DNA of 64,000 bases from Escherichia coli. GTDB taxonomy: Bacteria > Pseudomonadota > Gammaproteobacteria > Enterobacterales > Enterobacteriaceae. Shown in pieces: positions 841 to 48,250 of this stretch. Every line of letters begins with the position of its first letter. Position 1 is the stretch's first letter. The position numbers and the translations under genes are program-made. The notes beneath the pieces are model-generated. The model ran no database searches, had not been told where the DNA came from, and saw only the letters and a list, made by a program, of their open reading frames with translations. The DNA is taken from NCBI RefSeq assembly GCF_024298765.1, contig NZ_CP101211.1; one strand, given 5' to 3'.

Positions 841-1125
841 TTATTTAAGCTGGTCATCGTCTCTGGCCAGCATAGCCCAACCATTCGACTGGTTTTCGCG
901 GGAGTAAGGATTCATTTCAAAATAACTATCTACCGCGTCGCTGTCCGCAACAGAACTGTTGTTAGCTCTCTTTGAACCCTGAACCACTACAGCATCAACC
1001 TCTGCGGCTTTCCCGTTGCGCTGTACCAGGATTTTAACCGTCTTGGGCTTACGTCTTGCGAGCAGTTTGTTGGCGATAAAAAGCACAACAATCCAGGCCA
1101 AAAGCACGTATAAAAATTTATTCAT
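841..1125 (-). CDS. small membrane protein (94 aa, N-terminal TM helix)
   Basis: hydrophobic N-terminus YVLLAWIVVLFIA followed by a basic patch; palindrome motif at 1289 lies ~165 bp upstream. Confidence 0.5.
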   Translation of the reverse strand: MNKFLYVLLAWIVVLFIANKLLARRKPKTVKILVQRNGKAAEVDAVVVQGSKRANNSSVADSDAVDSYFEMNPYSRENQSNGWAMLARDDDQLK

Positions 1126-1300: not shown

Positions 1301-1481
1301 CCGTAATAGTTAATTTCAGATCCTTCTTCCAGTTACGCTTCAGTATAAAACCGATACCCTCTAATTCAGCATCCTTCACGTTTAATACGCTTCACTTTAA
1401 GGCAGGGCTTTTCGGTTGATATGAATTCTTTTTCCGGTTGCTGGACATGGGTTTCATCCTGATAGTTAAAATTGCAGGCTA

Positions 1482-1784
1482 TCAGTCACCACCACCACCT
1501 CCTCCTCCTCCTCCTCCACCGCCACCATCACAACCACCAGCTATGCTATTTTCACCATTACAATCACCTCCGAGGGGGTTCAAATGGCTGCTCCCCTGTA
1601 GATGGTGTCCTTGCCAGATCGAACCCGAACCAGCGCCTCCTGAGCGTCTTTGCTTGCCCTGAGGCAATTGTGCAGGCTCACCAGCACCGGCGGTCCCAAA
1701 AATGTCCCGGGCAATTTTATAAAGAAGGTAAAAAGGTACGCCCAGCATCATAAAAAAGATTACTGAAAATATTACACGTTCCAT
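1482..1784 (-). CDS. small membrane protein with C-terminal poly-Gly tract
   Basis: N-terminal TM segment; C-terminus GGCDGGGGGGGGGGGGGGD encoded by a (GGN)n trinucleotide repeat at about 1485-1540. Confidence 0.4.
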   Translation of the reverse strand: MERVIFSVIFFMMLGVPFYLLYKIARDIFGTAGAGEPAQLPQGKQRRSGGAGSGSIWQGHHLQGSSHLNPLGGDCNGENSIAGGCDGGGGGGGGGGGGGD

Positions 1785-2216
1785 TGATGATCTCCTGTCT
1801 TGTGAGAGACCAGTTATATCAGGGTGATTCAGTATTTCCGTTTAGAAAAGAGTACTAATTTGGCCCTGTTCGATCTTAATTTGCCATCCGGGAAAAAGTC
1901 ATAGGGATAGGCCTGCCAGAGTCAATAACTTCCAGTGATCTGGAGGAGACCCCGGCTCTCTGAGCCCTCATGGATGGTACGGCTTTACCCCCTGTAAACA
2001 GATTCACGTTCCGCAGGACAAACATCGACTACTGACGTCTCATATTTGCTGACGCTAATCCGACGTCTCATTGCCGTCTGCTTGTTTTCTTTAAAGGGTG
2101 TATTAGACGAATATCAAATCGGAATGGTAGGGGATGTGTGGGCACCATGCCCGGCCCTCTTTGAGCATCTGAGAGATTGGAGACCTAGCCGGGTAAGATA
2201 GCTACTTTCTTACGGG

Positions 2217-2585
2217 TTACCCTTCAAATCCAAAGACGAAACGGACGCTGCCGTTCTCCACGTGGAGACGCTTTACTTCTTCGACAAATTCCTGGATCAC
2301 CTCTCCGGCGTTATCGGGTGGTATGGCTGACAAAATTTCTTCCGAAGTCAGCCATGAGTATGAATGTTCACCGAATAAATCATCATCTTCGGACGGTATA
2401 TCATCAGGTAATCCGCGTAATGCGTGGATAAAAACTGCTGATGTGCTCGCCCTTTCACGATCTACATCAAATCCGAGCCAGGCAAAGTGGAGATATGATC
2501 GGTCCCCTTTATAATTGCTTGATAAATTAATCCATTTACCAGGCTTTTCTTCCCTTTGAAATCGCCAGCAGATATCAACGCCCAT
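2217..2585 (-). CDS. hypothetical protein (122 aa)
   Basis: ORF in co-directional gene string; acidic, no recognised domain. Confidence 0.45.
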   Translation of the reverse strand: MGVDICWRFQREEKPGKWINLSSNYKGDRSYLHFAWLGFDVDRERASTSAVFIHALRGLPDDIPSEDDDLFGEHSYSWLTSEEILSAIPPDNAGEVIQEFVEEVKRLHVENGSVRFVFGFEG

Positions 2586-44680: not shown

Positions 44681-46312
44681 CTGACGACGGTAGAGACTCA
44701 ATACCCTAACCCCTGACAACAGAAGTGAGCTTAGAGGTGTTACGCTGCTGTCACCTAATGCTTGGGAATTGCCTGACTCACAACCATTGTCATCCGGAGC
44801 TACTGATTAACGTTGAACCGCTGGACTTTAATGACAGTGGTAGTGATGGATAGGCTCATTTCCATTGTCGTCATTTTATCGGACAAGCCTCTTCGTCCTA
44901 CAGGTTTAAGCTGACAATGGTAGTGATTGGATGATCTCACTACTGTTGTCACTCAGTTCTTTGAGCGGACCCTTCCCTCGGTTGGTCGGCATTAACAACG
45001 GTAGTGACTCGATTGGCTCACTGCCATTGTCATCGTGTAAATGACGTACCTTATCAGCTCAGCTGAAAGCAATGACAACGGTAGTGACTCTAATTGCTCA
45101 CTGCCATTGTCGTCGTGTCTATTGAGAGCCTTATCAGTGCACCTGAAAAGCAATGACAACGGTAGTGACTCTAATTGCTCACTGCCATTGTCGTCGTGTC
45201 TATTGAGAGCCTTATCAGTGCACCTGAAAAGCAATGACAACGGTAGTGATTCTAATGGCTCACTACCGTTGTCACCGTGTGTATTGAGAGGATGGTCCAC
45301 TTAACTGGACGTATATGACAATGGTAGTGACTTTAATAGCTCACTACCATTGTCGGTGTGTGAATTGAGAGGATGAGCAGCTCAGCTGTACGTCCATGAC
45401 AATGGTAATGACTTAATGAGCTCACTACCGTTGTCACCCTGTTAATTAAGAGGCTCATCTGCTCTTCTGGAAGGCTATGACAACGGAAGTGACTTGCTGG
45501 GCTCACTGCCATTGTCGCCGTATGAATTGAGAGGATCATCCGCTCTTCTGGATGGCAATGACAACGGTAATGACTTAATAGGCTCACTACCATTGTCACC
45601 CTGTGAATTGAGAGGATGATCTGCTTAACCAGACGGCCATGACAACGGTAGTGACTTTCTGGGCTCAATACCGTTGTCACCCTGTGAGTTAAGAGGTTGA
45701 CCCGCTCTACTGGACGGCCATGACAACGGTAGTCACTTTCTGGGCTCACTACCGTTGTCACCCTGTGAGTTAAGAGGTTGACCCGCTCTACTGGACGGCC
45801 ATGACAACGGTAGTCACTTTCTGGGCTCACTACCGTTGTCGCCATATAGAATGAGAGGAGCATCAGCTCAACTGAACGGCAATGACTACAGTAATGAGCT
45901 GGATGAAGCATAACCATTGACATCTGGCCCAACCGGAAGCCGTATTCGCCAATCCAATCGAGATTCACAATGGCCGTGACTCGCCGCATTAAGTTCCGGT
46001 GTCCTCCCAAAGCTGAACGCACACTCGGAGGACAATGACAATGCCAGTAAGGTACACATCATTACCATTGTCACTATAGCTACCAGAGAAGCCGGGATTT
46101 GAATGTCGATGGTAGTGAGTGGGTCAACTCACTGCCATTGTCACCCCGTTACGATATTTTCCGTTGGATGTACTGGCCAATGAAGTAAAGCGTAGAAACC
46201 GGGTGTTAACAGGTGACTCAGGAGAAAGCGTTGAATTTCGCAATCTCGATCTACATAGGGTGGTAGAGAACAATGACAACGGTAATGACTTTTGACTCAT
46301 TACCGTTGACGT
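44681..46312. repeat. tandem array of about 20 x 81-bp repeats, each with an inverted pair of iteron-like 15-mers (TGACAACGGTAGTGA / TCACTACCGTTGTCA)
   Basis: exact 81-bp periodicity visible (e.g. 45069, 45150, 45231); adjacent units identical or near-identical. Confidence 0.85.
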
Positions 46313-46385: not shown

Positions 46386-47474
46386 TTAGCTGGCGTTGCT
46401 GTTCTTTTTCTGGCTTCGAAGACTACGAATATAGCGCAGTTCTTCAGCGGTTAAATCATGGACGGTAAGAACATCATCGCCGTCAATCGGGTCAGCTGGT
46501 GGGCATAACTCACCTTCTAAAACAGAAGACCCTGAGTTCTCTTCTTCATCTTCAACCACTTCTAAAGGAGGCTGAGTATTGTTCAAATTCAGATCGGGAT
46601 CCCGCTTATGAATCTGGAAGTATACTTTTCCGTCTTTCTTAATTTCGGTGTACTTGAGGTATCCTATCGATGCCAACTCTTCAAGAGCCTTTCTCACGGT
46701 AGCATTCTGACTATTTGCTCGTGTTTTGAGGTTCAGACGATTTTTCAGCCGAGTAAGGGATATCGGTATAGGATTTGGCGGTAATGACTCTATGAACGTA
46801 TAGAGAGCCTGGGCGCTTTCCTTCTTGGCCAACTCCTTAATTGCCTTCAGCTGCATCAAAACCTTATGATCGTATTGATAGAGCTCGAAAATCTTAGGAT
46901 CAACCTGAAGGACAACCTGATCTGATTCCGGGTCTAACAGGGCAGACTGTACCAGATGCGTTGTATAGACTTTGGACGAGTTATTACTGGTGAACGACAA
47001 GGTAACGGATGCTAACCTGCGTAAGGAGGCGTCTATACGTTTTCTGGACGCTGTAGATGAGCGATAATTTTCAGGCGTACATAGCTTGAGGAATTCAGTG
47101 AATTTTAAGCTTATCGTGTCATTGTTAATCGGATGATTGGCATAGGTTCGAATGATGCCCATCCACGTCTTAAAATCTACTGACATATTAAGACGCTCAC
47201 CGACAATTGAAATATTGGTGAACCCCTCGCTCTCCATTAAAGAGAGCGTCTGTAACTCTTTCGTTGCGTCAAAGCCAACCGTTTTATATTCCCGATTTTG
47301 ACGCCCCACACTCTTTGGTGATGGGACGAACAGCCCGAGCCGCATCAAAGCAATAGACTGCACCGTACGGTTGCTGTTAGGACGCAAAATGATGTCTTTA
47401 CCTGATTCTTTCTCTCTAACAGAGAAAGCCCTGGTGACCAGGTCCTGCTGCTCAGTATCTTTCTCTTTAGTCAT
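46386..47474 (-). CDS. repA: RepFIB-family replication initiator RepA (362 aa)
   Basis: ESAQALYTFIESLP.P.PISL.RL..RLNLK and N-terminal NTVQ..ALMRLG.FVP match RepFIB/P1-type RepA; flanked by iterons. Confidence 0.85.
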   Translation of the reverse strand: MTKEKDTEQQDLVTRAFSVREKESGKDIILRPNSNRTVQSIALMRLGLFVPSPKSVGRQNREYKTVGFDATKELQTLSLMESEGFTNISIVGERLNMSVDFKTWMGIIRTYANHPINNDTISLKFTEFLKLCTPENYRSSTASRKRIDASLRRLASVTLSFTSNNSSKVYTTHLVQSALLDPESDQVVLQVDPKIFELYQYDHKVLMQLKAIKELAKKESAQALYTFIESLPPNPIPISLTRLKNRLNLKTRANSQNATVRKALEELASIGYLKYTEIKKDGKVYFQIHKRDPDLNLNNTQPPLEVVEDEEENSGSSVLEGELCPPADPIDGDDVLTVHDLTAEELRYIRSLRSQKKNSNAS

Positions 47475-47599: not shown

Positions 47600-48250
47600 A
47601 CTCATTAAAACTTGGCAAAAACTCTTTGCATACAATGACCTGCAACTCTTATCAACAACGGATCAGATCAAGTTAAAAAGATCTAATGAAAAGTCACTAC
47701 TATTGTCGCTCTGATCACTACTGATGTCAAAAAACTCATTACCAACGTTATAATAATCACTACTAATGTCAAAATAATCACTACTGTTGTCACTGATCAC
47801 GTCTCAGGCCTTGTGCCGTCTGGCCTGGAGGCAGCGGGGATCTCTTTTGATCTATCAGGAACACTAAGGTACTAATTATTGGAACTACCTTGTGGAAAAT
47901 GGGGATAAATAAATGCTTAGTTCTTATACAGGTCTCAACTTGCCTCCCTGATAAAAACTGTCGTCAAAGCTAAATCACAGCCACAGGCATTTTCGGTGGA
48001 TAAATTTTTGAGAAATAGAAGCATACATGCAGACTCGTGTCGCAAGTAATTGAAAGTAATGATTTATTTAAATAATGCGAGTCACCTTACCTCACAGTGG
48101 AAGTTTAAGTCTAACCTCACTACCATTGTCACTTAAAATCATTACCAACGTCGAAATAGTCTCTACCATTGTCTTTTAAGTCACTCCCGTTGTCACTTAT
48201 GTCGCTACTGTTGTCAGTGACAATGCTCCAGCCCAGTAACCATGCGGCCT
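47600..48250. other. putative iteron-type replication origin
   Basis: two sets of ~5 direct iterons (TCACTACYRTTGTCA, ~21-23 bp spacing) at 47693-47800 and 48116-48228; GATC cluster at 47661-47690; AT-rich spacer. Confidence 0.6.

What the first reader, a model, noticed from the sequence alone, without database searches (positions are those of the whole stretch)
1482..1784. Trinucleotide (GGN)n repeat encoding a poly-glycine tail in a small membrane protein
The C-terminal ~19 codons are almost pure Gly, encoded by a run of GGT/GGA/GGC triplets (plus strand CACCACCACCACCTCCTCCTCC...). Such simple-sequence repeats are prone to slippage, which could vary tail length in frame. The N-terminus is a TM helix, reminiscent of glycine-rich membrane-active peptides.
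Basis: seen in the sequence. Interest (0 to 1): 0.35.

Follow-up and report, generated by a model that had tools for sequence, protein, structure and literature searches.

The report
Plasmid membrane protein's variable glycine tail
A small, dispensable membrane-anchored protein of unknown role on IncHI2 resistance plasmids ends in a glycine run encoded by a slippery three-base repeat, so its length differs between isolates; sister plasmids keep a short, fixed version of the same cysteine-glycine-aspartate tail, so the tail is a real conserved feature while the length variation looks like mutational noise.

Summary
Window 1482-1784 (-) is a 100-aa ORF with an ATG start, an AGGAG Shine-Dalgarno site 7 nt upstream, an N-terminal hydrophobic helix and a disordered Gly/Ser-rich remainder. 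It ends in G13-D, encoded by GGT GGC GGT (GGA)6 (GGT)4 GAC.

The window is an IncHI2 conjugative plasmid. The gene is RefSeq "hypothetical protein" WP_000442694.1, found in about 977 PLSDB plasmids and 241 of 5,426 complete E. coli genomes.

The tract is a mutational hot spot. I verified ten intact DNA alleles with Gly runs of 3 to 14, all in frame, on backgrounds with 0-2 differences per kb elsewhere. The interrupted allele G6-D-G5-D was uniform in length in every sampled row.

There is no sequence homolog outside IncH plasmids and no hit in Pfam, NCBIfam, PHROGs, PADLOC or PDB. At the same syntenic position, IncHI1 and two further IncH-like groups carry a mostly unannotated 77-88-aa ORF of the same build. 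It has a transmembrane helix, a basic flank, a Gly-rich linker, C-X9-C and a terminal GGGGD, encoded by mixed Gly codons.

R478 carries Tn10 inside the gene, so it is dispensable. The microcin-like reading finds no support. This is an ordinary but previously undescribed small-protein family, of low to moderate interest.

The parts
1482..1784 (-). Complete ORF of 100 aa plus stop. It is RefSeq WP_000442694.1, annotated 'hypothetical protein'.
1792..1796 (-). Shine-Dalgarno site AGGAG, 7 nt upstream of the ATG at 1784-1782. The same motif and spacing are found in the IncHI1 and third-group counterparts.
1698..1781 (-). N-terminal hydrophobic helix, residues 2-29. The hydrophobic core is residues 4-22 (1719-1775). 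It is followed by K23 and R26 and is the likely membrane anchor.
   Evidence: helix 2-29, pLDDT about 77; KD19 maximum 2.24
1563..1697 (-). Gly/Ser/Gln-rich linker, residues 30-74, predicted disordered.
   Evidence: pLDDT below 50; composition
1530..1562 (-). C75-X9-C85 motif (CNGENSIAGGC). Both Cys are invariant in the nine aligned IncHI2 sequences of A1 (one further allele, L025, has lost Cys85). The C-X9-C spacing recurs in the counterparts of other IncH groups.
1485..1529 (-). C-terminal tail D86-G13-D100, encoded as GAT GGT GGC GGT (GGA)6 (GGT)4 GAC.
1500..1517 (-). Perfect (GGA)6 sub-tract. Copy number ranges from 2 to 6 among verified alleles.
1488..1499 (-). Perfect (GGT)4 sub-tract. 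Copy number ranges from 4 to 6 among verified alleles.
1785..2216 (-). 432-nt upstream intergenic region, 94.7% conserved against the divergent plasmid L012. No promoter reached the consensus threshold. A weak sub-threshold Rfam hit lies at 1782-1824.

Best explanation
The ORF is a genuine but weakly constrained and dispensable backbone gene of IncHI2 plasmids.

It encodes a small single-pass inner-membrane protein. An N-terminal helix anchors it in the membrane. The remaining 70 or so residues form a flexible, disordered Gly/Ser-rich chain carrying a conserved C-X9-C motif and a Gly-run-Asp C-terminus. This chain most likely faces the cytoplasm (N-out/C-in).

It belongs to a previously unnamed, IncH-restricted family found at one fixed position, between the ParB-like gene block and the TraI/TraD/TraJ/S49-peptidase/NERD operon. 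In that family the ancestral tail is short and encoded by mixed Gly codons (...GGGCGGGGD).

In IncHI2 the tail became G6-D-G5/6-D. In the window's lineage the interrupting GGT GAC was replaced by GGA codons, creating perfect (GGA)6(GGT)4.

That pure trinucleotide repeat now mutates by replication slippage and produces in-frame alleles with 3 to 14 Gly. The protein tolerates these changes, so the variation is mutational noise in a spacer-like tail, not a switch.

Inferred, not shown: the protein acts as a membrane-tethered flexible adaptor, with its thiol-bearing acidic tip contacting a partner or a metal near the membrane. It is not required for plasmid maintenance or transfer.
For: Shown here:
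- The window is an IncHI2 plasmid and the gene is widespread. It occurs in 977 PLSDB plasmids and 241 of 5,426 complete E. coli genomes, 243 places on plasmids and 2 on chromosomes.
- The start context is conserved. ATG plus AGGAG with 7-nt spacing is seen in IncHI2 lineages and in the IncHI1 and third-group counterparts.
- The architecture is a helix at residues 2-29 followed by disorder.
- Ten intact tract alleles were verified at the DNA level:
  - (GGA)6(GGT)4
  - (GGA)5(GGT)4
  - (GGA)5(GGT)5
  - (GGA)5(GGT)6
  - (GGA)4(GGT)5
  - (GGA)4(GGT)6
  - (GGA)2(GGT)4
  - GGT GGT GGT
  - G6-D-G5-D
  - G6-D-G6-D
- All ten are in frame and keep the same GAC TGA end.
- Differences concentrate in the tract.
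- All 24 sampled rows of the interrupted type had the same 598-bp span. The mixed-codon IncHI1 locus was full-length in 31 of 40 sampled rows at 99.6% identity or more. This is the behaviour expected if mutability comes from repeat purity.
- A syntenic counterpart with the same build exists in IncHI1 (L028 8828-9061, minus strand), in a third group (P0057-P0060, L030-L032) and in a fourth (P0063). Each has a TM helix, an R/K flank, a Gly-rich linker and a terminal GGGGD. Most also have C-X9-C. Flanking genes are homologous at 53-77% identity.
- In those counterparts no K or R precedes the TM and 3-4 follow it. By the positive-inside rule this gives N-out/C-in.
- dN/dS over codons 1-86 is 0.19-0.78, within the range of neighbouring genes at 0.10-0.97.
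- The gene is dispensable. IS10/Tn10 is inserted after codon 49 on 460 contigs, in 25 PLSDB plasmids and in R478 itself, NC_005211.1.
Against: - There is no expression, localisation or phenotype data of any kind.
- Homology between the IncHI2 protein and the IncHI1-type proteins cannot be shown by sequence statistics. hhalign gives probability 15% over 16 tail columns. Unfiltered BLASTP gives 25-37% identity with composition-inflated E-values. The case rests on synteny, architecture and motif.
- For the IncHI2 protein itself the charge balance around the TM is ambiguous (R3 against K23 and R26), so the topology is inferred from relatives.
- Three equal-length alleles with a shifted GGA/GGT boundary, (6,4), (5,5) and (4,6), could hint at a length preference. 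That would argue against pure neutrality.
- dN/dS rests on 5-14 substitutions per comparison.
- Allele L025 has lost Cys85, so the C-X9-C motif is not absolutely required for persistence.
Confidence: 0.6

Rival explanations
1. Protein-level contingency locus. Tail-length variation is adaptive, and slippage tunes the reach or activity of the tail. It might, for example, modulate interaction with a host or plasmid partner, or help escape recognition.
For: There is high allele diversity on near-identical backgrounds. The lineage has evolved a purer, more mutable repeat from an interrupted one. The equal-length alleles (6,4), (5,5) and (4,6) suggest some length preference.
Against: - The repeat unit is 3 nt, so there is no on/off switching.
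- Alleles from G3 to G14 and complete Tn10 knock-outs all persist in circulating plasmids.
- 44 of 60 sampled E. coli plasmids carry one and the same allele.
- Sister lineages keep a fixed tail.
Confidence: 0.1
2. Exported glycine-rich antimicrobial peptide, microcin-like or microcin-B17-like. The N-terminal hydrophobic segment would act as a signal peptide and the two Cys would form a disulfide loop.
For: Composition only. The protein is 29% Gly, about 100 aa and plasmid-borne, with two Cys separated by 9 residues near the C-terminus. From memory, MccV has a C-terminal Cys pair and McbA has a G10 run. A possible AGA|G small-residue site lies at residues 32-35.
Against: - There is no double-glycine leader. 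The first GG is at residues 49-50.
- The hydrophobic stretch is 19 or more residues long and is followed by charged residues, which fits an anchor rather than a signal peptide.
- No ABC exporter, C39 peptidase, YcaO or McbBCD gene is annotated in the 50 kb checked.
- No bacteriocin model matches in Pfam or NCBIfam.
- The relatives have 3-4 K/R directly after the TM and none before it, which indicates a cytoplasmic tail.
Confidence: 0.04
3. Not a protein-coding gene on this strand. Either the G-rich tract acts at the DNA or RNA level (G-quadruplex or H-DNA, or SD-like GGAGG repeats), or the real product is the opposite-strand poly-proline ORF at 1438-1662 (+).
For: - The opposite-strand frames stay open in all lineages.
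- The poly-Pro frame shares wobble positions with the Gly frame, so dN/dS cannot separate the two.
- The tract is the only place in the window with 8 or more GG runs with 1-2-nt loops.
- Short-read contigs end inside it.
Against: - The plus-strand ORFs start at TTG and I saw no SD-like motif upstream of them in the sequence.
- The minus ORF has ATG plus a consensus SD conserved across three plasmid groups.
- The minus ORF has a coherent TM-anchor architecture.
- The counterpart in IncHI1 keeps the same protein build and the same C-terminal residues with non-repetitive codons and synonymous differences. Only protein-level selection explains this.
Confidence: 0.06
4. Membrane-damaging toxin of an addiction or abortive module, type-I-toxin-like.
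For: It is a small protein with one very hydrophobic helix, and Hok-family toxins occur elsewhere on these plasmids.
Against: - It is 100 aa with a long hydrophilic tail, against fewer than 60 aa for type I toxins.
- No toxin family matches.
- No antisense promoter-like site overlaps it.
- The Tn10-truncated form keeps the helix and is stably carried.
Confidence: 0.04

Closest known systems
Syntenic small ORF of IncHI1 plasmids (pHCM1/R27-type; L028 8828-9061, proteins P0050-P0052) and of two further IncH-like groups (P0057-P0060, P0063)
   Same: - It occupies the same position between the 178/181-aa gene and the 94/104-aa gene, next to the NERD/S49/TraJ/TraD/TraI operon.
- It has the same AGGAG-7nt-ATG start context.
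- It has the same build: an N-terminal TM, a basic flank, a Gly/Ser linker, C-X9-C in most members, and a terminal Gly4-6-Asp.
   Different: - Overall sequence similarity is only 25-37% (compositionally biased BLASTP), and hhalign probability is 15%.
- The counterparts are shorter, at 77-88 aa.
- Their tail is encoded by mixed Gly codons and was not seen to vary in most sampled plasmids.
- The gene is mostly unannotated in IncHI1 records.
Bacterial small single-pass membrane proteins in general (the class reviewed in PMC12648545 and PMC7549839; examples such as AcrZ and MgrB are recalled from memory)
   Same: The protein is small, has one TM helix, has no enzymatic domain, is often missed by annotation, and is likely to act by binding a larger membrane partner.
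   Different: At 100 aa it is much longer than those examples, with a disordered tail of about 70 residues. There is no homology to any of them, and a partner is unknown.
In-frame trinucleotide simple-sequence repeats in bacterial coding regions (the contingency-locus concept; established knowledge, recalled)
   Same: A perfect short tandem repeat changes copy number among close relatives, and interruptions stabilise it.
   Different: The unit is 3 nt and lies at the extreme C-terminus, so it changes tail length only. No on/off switching and no phenotype is linked to it.
Class IIa microcins (MccV) and the microcin B17 precursor McbA (sequences recalled from memory, not tested by alignment)
   Same: They are Gly-rich, about 70-100 aa and plasmid-encoded. 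MccV has a Cys pair near the C-terminus, and McbA has a poly-Gly run with Cys and Ser.
   Different: Here there is no leader peptide, no exporter, no immunity gene and no modification genes. The N-terminus is a membrane anchor and the tail is probably cytoplasmic.
SSB-type architecture: a Gly-rich disordered linker ending in an acidic tip (analogy from established knowledge)
   Same: A flexible Gly-rich chain ends in an acidic residue and could serve as a docking tip.
   Different: There is no OB fold. The protein is membrane-anchored, its acidic tip is a single Asp, and no partner is known.

Membership tests
IncH 'TM anchor + Cys/Gly/Asp tail' small-protein family (defined here) | Fixed syntenic position between the ParB-like gene block and the convergent TraI-TraD-TraJ-S49-NERD operon | tested here: met
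IncH 'TM anchor + Cys/Gly/Asp tail' small-protein family (defined here) | N-terminal hydrophobic helix followed by K/R residues, then a Gly/Ser-rich disordered linker | tested here: met
IncH 'TM anchor + Cys/Gly/Asp tail' small-protein family (defined here) | C-X9-C followed by a Gly run and a C-terminal Asp | tested here: met
   The window protein has C75-X9-C85-D-G13-D. P0052 and P0058-P0060 have C-X9-C-GGGGD, as does P0063. The R27/pHCM1-type P0050 has only the second Cys.
IncH 'TM anchor + Cys/Gly/Asp tail' small-protein family (defined here) | Statistically significant sequence or profile similarity between the IncHI2 and IncHI1-type members | tested here: inconclusive
   hhalign gives probability 15% and E 0.0018 over 16 columns. 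Default BLASTP gives E 2.9. Unfiltered BLASTP gives 25-37% identity.
Class IIa microcin / double-glycine-leader bacteriocin | N-terminal leader of about 15-25 aa ending in GG, GA or GS | tested here: not met
   The N-terminus is a 28-residue hydrophobic helix and the first GG is at residues 49-50.
Class IIa microcin / double-glycine-leader bacteriocin | Dedicated ABC exporter with a C39 peptidase domain, plus an accessory protein and an immunity gene nearby | tested here: not met
   None is annotated among the 66 features in the 50 kb checked. Neighbouring proteins have no such Pfam or NCBIfam hits.
Class IIa microcin / double-glycine-leader bacteriocin | Antibacterial activity of the secreted peptide | not testable with these tools
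   This needs a wet-lab assay.
Microcin B17 / linear azole peptide precursor | Adjacent cyclodehydratase/dehydrogenase genes (McbBCD, YcaO) | tested here: not met
   No such product appears in the annotated 50 kb.
Type I toxin (Hok, Ldr, TisB-like) | Hydrophobic peptide under about 60 aa that matches a toxin family model and has an overlapping antisense RNA | tested here: not met
   The protein is 100 aa. There are no Pfam, NCBIfam or PADLOC hits. No promoter-like site lies on the opposite strand over the gene.
Phase-variable simple-sequence contingency locus | Repeat copy number differs among close relatives | tested here: met
Phase-variable simple-sequence contingency locus | Copy-number change switches expression on or off, by frameshift or promoter spacing | tested here: not met
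   The unit is 3 nt. All ten verified intact alleles keep the frame and the same stop codon.
Conjugative pilin (TrhA/TrbC/VirB2 type) | Cleaved signal peptide followed by two hydrophobic helices; in TrhA, cyclisation after removal of 5 C-terminal residues (PMC12667790) | tested here: not met
   There is only one hydrophobic segment, and Asp is the last residue with nothing after it to cleave.

The most novel reading that the evidence does not exclude
The conserved C-terminal module, one or two copies of roughly G-G-C-G4-D on a flexible cytoplasmic tether, is a functional thiol- or metal-binding or partner-docking element specific to IncH plasmids. It might, for example, act at the inner-membrane face near the coupling protein and relaxosome encoded next door. 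In the dominant IncHI2 lineage its Gly spacer has been converted into a hypermutable repeat that tunes the reach of the tip, which would make it a protein-level contingency device.
Probability: 0.1. Interest if true: 0.55.

Novelty: new member of a known kind. Interest (0 to 1): 0.3.

Why it matters
IncHI2 and IncHI1 plasmids are major carriers of mcr, ESBL, carbapenemase and metal-resistance genes. More than half of their backbone is annotated as 'hypothetical'.

This work defines one such gene as part of a conserved IncH-specific small-membrane-protein family that is mostly unannotated in IncHI1 records. It also shows which parts are constrained (the anchor, the C-X9-C motif and the Gly-run-Asp end) and which are free (the Gly-run length).

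There are two practical consequences. First, the tract is a fast-evolving in-frame marker that could help discriminate very closely related IncHI2 plasmids in outbreak tracing. Second, it is a recurrent breakpoint of short-read assemblies, so draft assemblies truncate this gene and misreport it as 'partial'.

The biological stakes are modest, because the gene is dispensable in R478.

Tried and rejected
- **Homology searches with the IncHI2 protein.** I searched 5.8 billion proteins, 1.84 billion cluster representatives exhaustively and plasmids by tblastn. Only IncHI2 variants were found. The sole outside hit, P0049, is a 515-aa low-complexity match.
- **Family and structure libraries.** Pfam, NCBIfam, PHROGs, PADLOC and PDB sequences gave nothing.
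- **Apparent distant tblastn hit H150.** It turned out to be an ordinary IncHI2 plasmid with an error-laden copy.
- **IncHI1B/Klebsiella group (L029).** No TM-plus-Gly-tail ORF occurs at the syntenic gap.
- **Rfam.** Only a sub-threshold Mu-gpT-DE hit was found, at 24 bits against a gathering score of 49, over the 5' UTR and start. I treat it as chance.
- **Promoter and terminator scan.** No consensus sigma-70 site lies in the 432-nt upstream spacer and no terminator follows the gene. The number of sites in the region is no higher than in shuffles.
- **Opposite-strand ORFs as a test.** Their openness cannot be used as evidence, because G/C-rich repeats lack stops in all frames and the wobble positions coincide.
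- **Literature.** IncHI2 evolution and annotation papers mention only 'hypothetical protein regions'. Nothing on the oriT or leading region was usable for IncHI2. The idea that the Gly...Asp termini relate to TrhA pilin cyclisation was rejected on architecture.
- **Fold search.** It was not run, because the model is a single helix plus disorder (pTM 0.24).

Full report
**What is there.** Window 1482-1784 on the minus strand is a 100-codon ORF. It encodes MERVIFSVIFFMMLGVPFYLLYKIARDIFGTAGAGEPAQLPQGKQRRSGGAGSGSIWQGHHLQGSSHLNPLGGDCNGENSIAGGCDGGGGGGGGGGGGGD.

- The ATG is preceded by AGGAG at a 7-nt spacing (1792-1796).
- The last codons are GGT GGC GGT (GGA)6 (GGT)4 GAC TGA.
- Tandem Repeats Finder calls a period-3 array at 1487-1539, the only one in the 64 kb.
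- The only amino-acid homopolymers of 6 or more in any open frame of the window are G13, P13, L6 and S6. The first three come from this tract read in different frames, and the S6 appears to as well.
- Residues 4-22 give a Kyte-Doolittle 19-mer mean of 2.24.
- AlphaFold predicts a helix at residues 2-29 with pLDDT about 77, and only low-confidence coil after it.

**Where it comes from.** The 601 bp around the ORF match 977 PLSDB plasmids at 95-100%. Nearly all are 200-400-kb conjugative IncHI2/IncHI2A, MOBH, MPF_F plasmids of Escherichia, Salmonella, Enterobacter and Klebsiella, and the match to pSTM6-275 is exact. The tract-centred 256 bp (1385-1640) is also found in 241 of 5,426 complete E. 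coli genomes, almost always on plasmids.

RefSeq annotates the ORF as hypothetical protein WP_000442694.1. It lies in a long run of small minus-strand hypothetical genes. That run starts with a ParB-like protein and converges on the TraI(MobH)-TraD-TraJ-S49 peptidase-NERD operon.

**Does the repeat vary?** Yes. Sequences fetched from plasmids and contigs gave ten intact alleles.

| Allele (after GGT GGC GGT) | Tail | Length | Source |
|---|---|---|---|
| (GGA)6(GGT)4 | G13-D | 100 aa | window, L001 |
| (GGA)5(GGT)4 | G12-D | 99 aa | L003 |
| (GGA)4(GGT)5 | G12-D | 99 aa | L004 |
| (GGA)5(GGT)5 | G13-D | 100 aa | L026 |
| (GGA)4(GGT)6 | G13-D | 100 aa | L007, L027 |
| (GGA)5(GGT)6 | G14-D | 101 aa | L023, L024 |
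| (GGA)2(GGT)4 | G9-D | 96 aa | L017 |
| GGT GGT GGT only (tract deleted) | G3-D | 90 aa | L016 |
| GGA GGA GGT GAC GGA (GGT)4 | G6-D-G5-D | 99 aa | L002, L006 |
| GGA GGA GGT GAC GGA (GGT)5 | G6-D-G6-D | 100 aa | L012, L014 |

- All alleles keep the frame and the GAC TGA end.
- In near-identical plasmids the 56-bp tract carries 2-30 differences, while the other 945 bp carry 0-2.
- In an evenly spaced sample of E. coli records, 44 of 60 have exactly the window's sequence. The rest include -6, -3 and +3 bp forms and same-length boundary shifts.
- All 24 sampled plasmids of the interrupted type have the same 598-bp span.
- Frameshifted versions are mostly singletons, plausibly sequencing errors.
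- Pure repeats being unstable and interrupted ones stable is the classic signature of replication slippage. That attribution is an inference from established knowledge.

**Is it a gene, and how constrained is it?**

- Against a plasmid about 4% divergent (L012), the ORF has 8 synonymous and 8 non-synonymous changes.
- Nei-Gojobori dN/dS over codons 1-86 is 0.19-0.78 across four lineages. Neighbouring genes range from 0.10 to 0.97.
- The numbers are small. They indicate weak purifying selection, no better and no worse than the rest of this accessory block.
- The opposite-strand ORFs, including a poly-proline one, stay open too and share wobble positions. Openness and dN/dS therefore cannot choose the strand.
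- The conserved ATG/SD, the coherent anchor-plus-tail architecture and the comparative evidence below do choose the minus strand.

**Dispensability.** A 64-aa variant, P0013, is seen on 460 contigs. It is identical for 49 residues and then reads into the end of an IS10-type element, followed by the jemA-like, ABM and ArsR-type genes. I read this arrangement as Tn10. The same junction is present in 25 PLSDB plasmids. The first listed is NC_005211.1, the 274,762-bp Serratia marcescens plasmid R478, which is the IncHI2 reference. The full-length protein is therefore not needed for maintenance or spread of these plasmids.

**Relatives.** Sequence searches found nothing outside IncHI2. No family library or PDB sequence matched.

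Synteny was more informative. In an IncHI1 plasmid the flanking genes are 53-77% identical to the window's. The equivalent gap holds an unannotated ORF (L028 8828-9061, minus strand) preceded by AGGAG-7nt-ATG. It encodes MLLNIALILYVAVCLYLCLRNKKALYRFQGGGRQFTQSSKSGANTGESGFFLISGYSDTGVGGDSGDAGGGCGGGGD.

- This locus occurs in 273 PLSDB plasmids, including pHCM1, and is mostly unannotated.
- Protein searches from it recovered two more lineages. P0057-P0060 come from a group at about 75% DNA identity with identical synteny (L030-L032). P0063 comes from a metagenome. They end in ...GDAGCGAGGDAGGGCGGGGD or ...GGCGGGGDAGGGCGGGGD.
- All share an N-terminal TM helix, 3-4 K/R residues immediately after it and none before, a Gly/Ser-rich linker and a terminal Gly4-Asp. 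In most, two Cys are spaced by exactly nine residues, as in the window protein (C75-X9-C85).
- Their tails use mixed Gly codons (GGT GGC GGA TGT GGG GGC GGT GGT GAT) with synonymous differences between lineages. The Gly-run-Asp end is therefore conserved at the protein level and is not a by-product of a DNA repeat.
- Formal homology is not demonstrable. hhalign gives 15%, default BLASTP gives E 2.9, and unfiltered BLASTP gives 25-37% identity.
- I regard these as positional orthologues that have diverged much faster than their neighbours, as disordered proteins do. This is inference.
- No counterpart was seen in the IncHI1B/Klebsiella group.

**How it most likely works.**

- Shown: the architecture, the conservation of the anchor and of the Cys/Gly/Asp end, the hypermutable tract, and dispensability.
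- Inferred: by the positive-inside rule the relatives are N-out/C-in, so the tail is cytoplasmic and its cysteines are reduced.
- Inferred: the protein is best seen as a membrane-tethered flexible chain whose tip, two thiols and an acidic end, contacts a partner or a metal at the inner face of the membrane.
- Inferred: the Gly run is a spacer with loose length requirements.
- Inferred: in the ancestor of the window's lineage, GGT GAC within G6-D-G5/6-D was overwritten by GGA codons. This created a perfect repeat that now slips freely.

I put about 0.6 on this overall picture. I put much less, about 0.1, on any specific partner or metal function.

**Rivals.**

- Adaptive tail-length tuning is not excluded. 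The equal-length alleles (6,4), (5,5) and (4,6) are curious. However, alleles from G3 to G14 and knock-outs all circulate.
- The microcin-like reading fails on the leader, the exporter, the modification genes and the probable topology.
- A non-coding or other-strand reading is contradicted by the protein-level conservation in IncHI1-type plasmids.
- A type-I-toxin reading fails on size and on family models.

**Technical note.** Hundreds of draft-assembly contigs end inside the tract. 'Partial' proteins of 86-94 aa occur on 205, 136, 127, 84, 38, 38 and 23 contigs. Four independent Logan contigs stop at the identical base...GGAGGAGGAGG. I cannot tell whether this reflects within-culture heterogeneity or a sequencing or assembly artefact of G-rich low-complexity DNA. 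Either way, allele surveys should use long-read or finished assemblies.

**Verdict.**

- The slippage interpretation is supported.
- The membrane-active-peptide interpretation is not supported.
- The gene is an uncharacterised, dispensable member of a small IncH-specific family that has not been described, as far as the libraries and papers I could search show.
- It is a modest finding: useful for annotation and plasmid typing, but not surprising to a specialist.

Noticed in passing
L028 8828-9061 (-) (IncHI1 plasmid NZ_OQ658823.1); also pHCM1 NC_003384.1 around 212.4-212.9 kb: A 77-aa ORF with a consensus SD, an N-terminal TM and a ...GGGCGGGGD end is left unannotated in most IncHI1 records. 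'None' is listed under the match in most of the rows shown. It is the positional counterpart of the window ORF.
   Followed up: yes
window 1488-1526; loci L019-L022: Short-read assemblies (NCBI drafts and Logan) very often break inside the (GGA)n(GGT)n tract. Hundreds of 'partial' proteins of 86-94 aa result, and four independent contigs end at the identical base ...GGAGGAGGAGG. The cause, whether read heterogeneity or a G-rich sequencing or assembly artefact, is unresolved.
   Followed up: partly
window codon 49/50 of the ORF (about 1636-1638); L008 4001-5463; R478 NC_005211.1 211807-212057: In R478 and 24 other PLSDB plasmids, and on 460 contigs overall, an IS10-type element that I read as the end of Tn10 is inserted in this gene. 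This leaves a 64-aa product that keeps the TM helix.
   Followed up: yes
window 44995-45897, 47714-47792, 48158-48216: An 81-bp tandem array of 11.2 copies (also scored as period 243) and two sets of 21-bp repeats flank a 362-aa ORF (46386-47474, minus strand) that has no Pfam hit. This looks like a replicon or iteron region. The window differs here from pSTM6-275, which has an IS1 at these coordinates.
   Followed up: partly
window 841-1125 (-): The next gene downstream (94 aa) has the same general build: an N-terminal TM, an ARRKPK flank and a hydrophilic tail. It also evolves faster than its neighbours, at 55% identity to its IncHI1 counterpart over 60 residues, against 53-77% over full length for the others. 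The two may work as a pair.
   Followed up: partly
window 2217-2585 (-): The 122-aa gene upstream is a presence/absence polymorphism. It is missing, as a roughly 530-bp indel, in the divergent IncHI2-like contig L012. IncHI1 has a DUF905 gene and the third group has a 64-aa ORF near this position. It gives weak PHROG hits to families of unknown function.
   Followed up: partly
window 1782-1824 (-): A sub-threshold Rfam match to the Mu-gpT-DE RNA (24.4 bits against a gathering score of 49, E 0.035) covers the 5' UTR, the SD and the start codon of the ORF. It is probably chance.
   Followed up: no
window 1438-1662 (+): The opposite strand carries a 74-codon ORF with a 13-proline run (TTG start, no SD motif seen by eye). 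It stays open in all lineages simply because the tract lacks stop codons in every frame.
   Followed up: yes
L025 (NZ_CP097364.1), tail of the ORF: One complete E. coli plasmid has GGT TTT GAT in place of GGT GGT TGT GAT. This removes Gly84 and changes Cys85 to Phe, so the second Cys of the C-X9-C motif can be lost in a circulating plasmid.
   Followed up: no
window 422-35760 (-), by annotation of pSTM6-275: There is a very long one-directional block of small hypothetical genes. It includes a ParB-like protein, an orphan DNA methyltransferase, a PAPS-reductase-family protein, an HNH endonuclease and an Ig-like protein. It resembles the anti-defence or 'leading-region' islands described for other plasmids. 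The position of the IncHI2 oriT relative to it was not established.
   Followed up: partly
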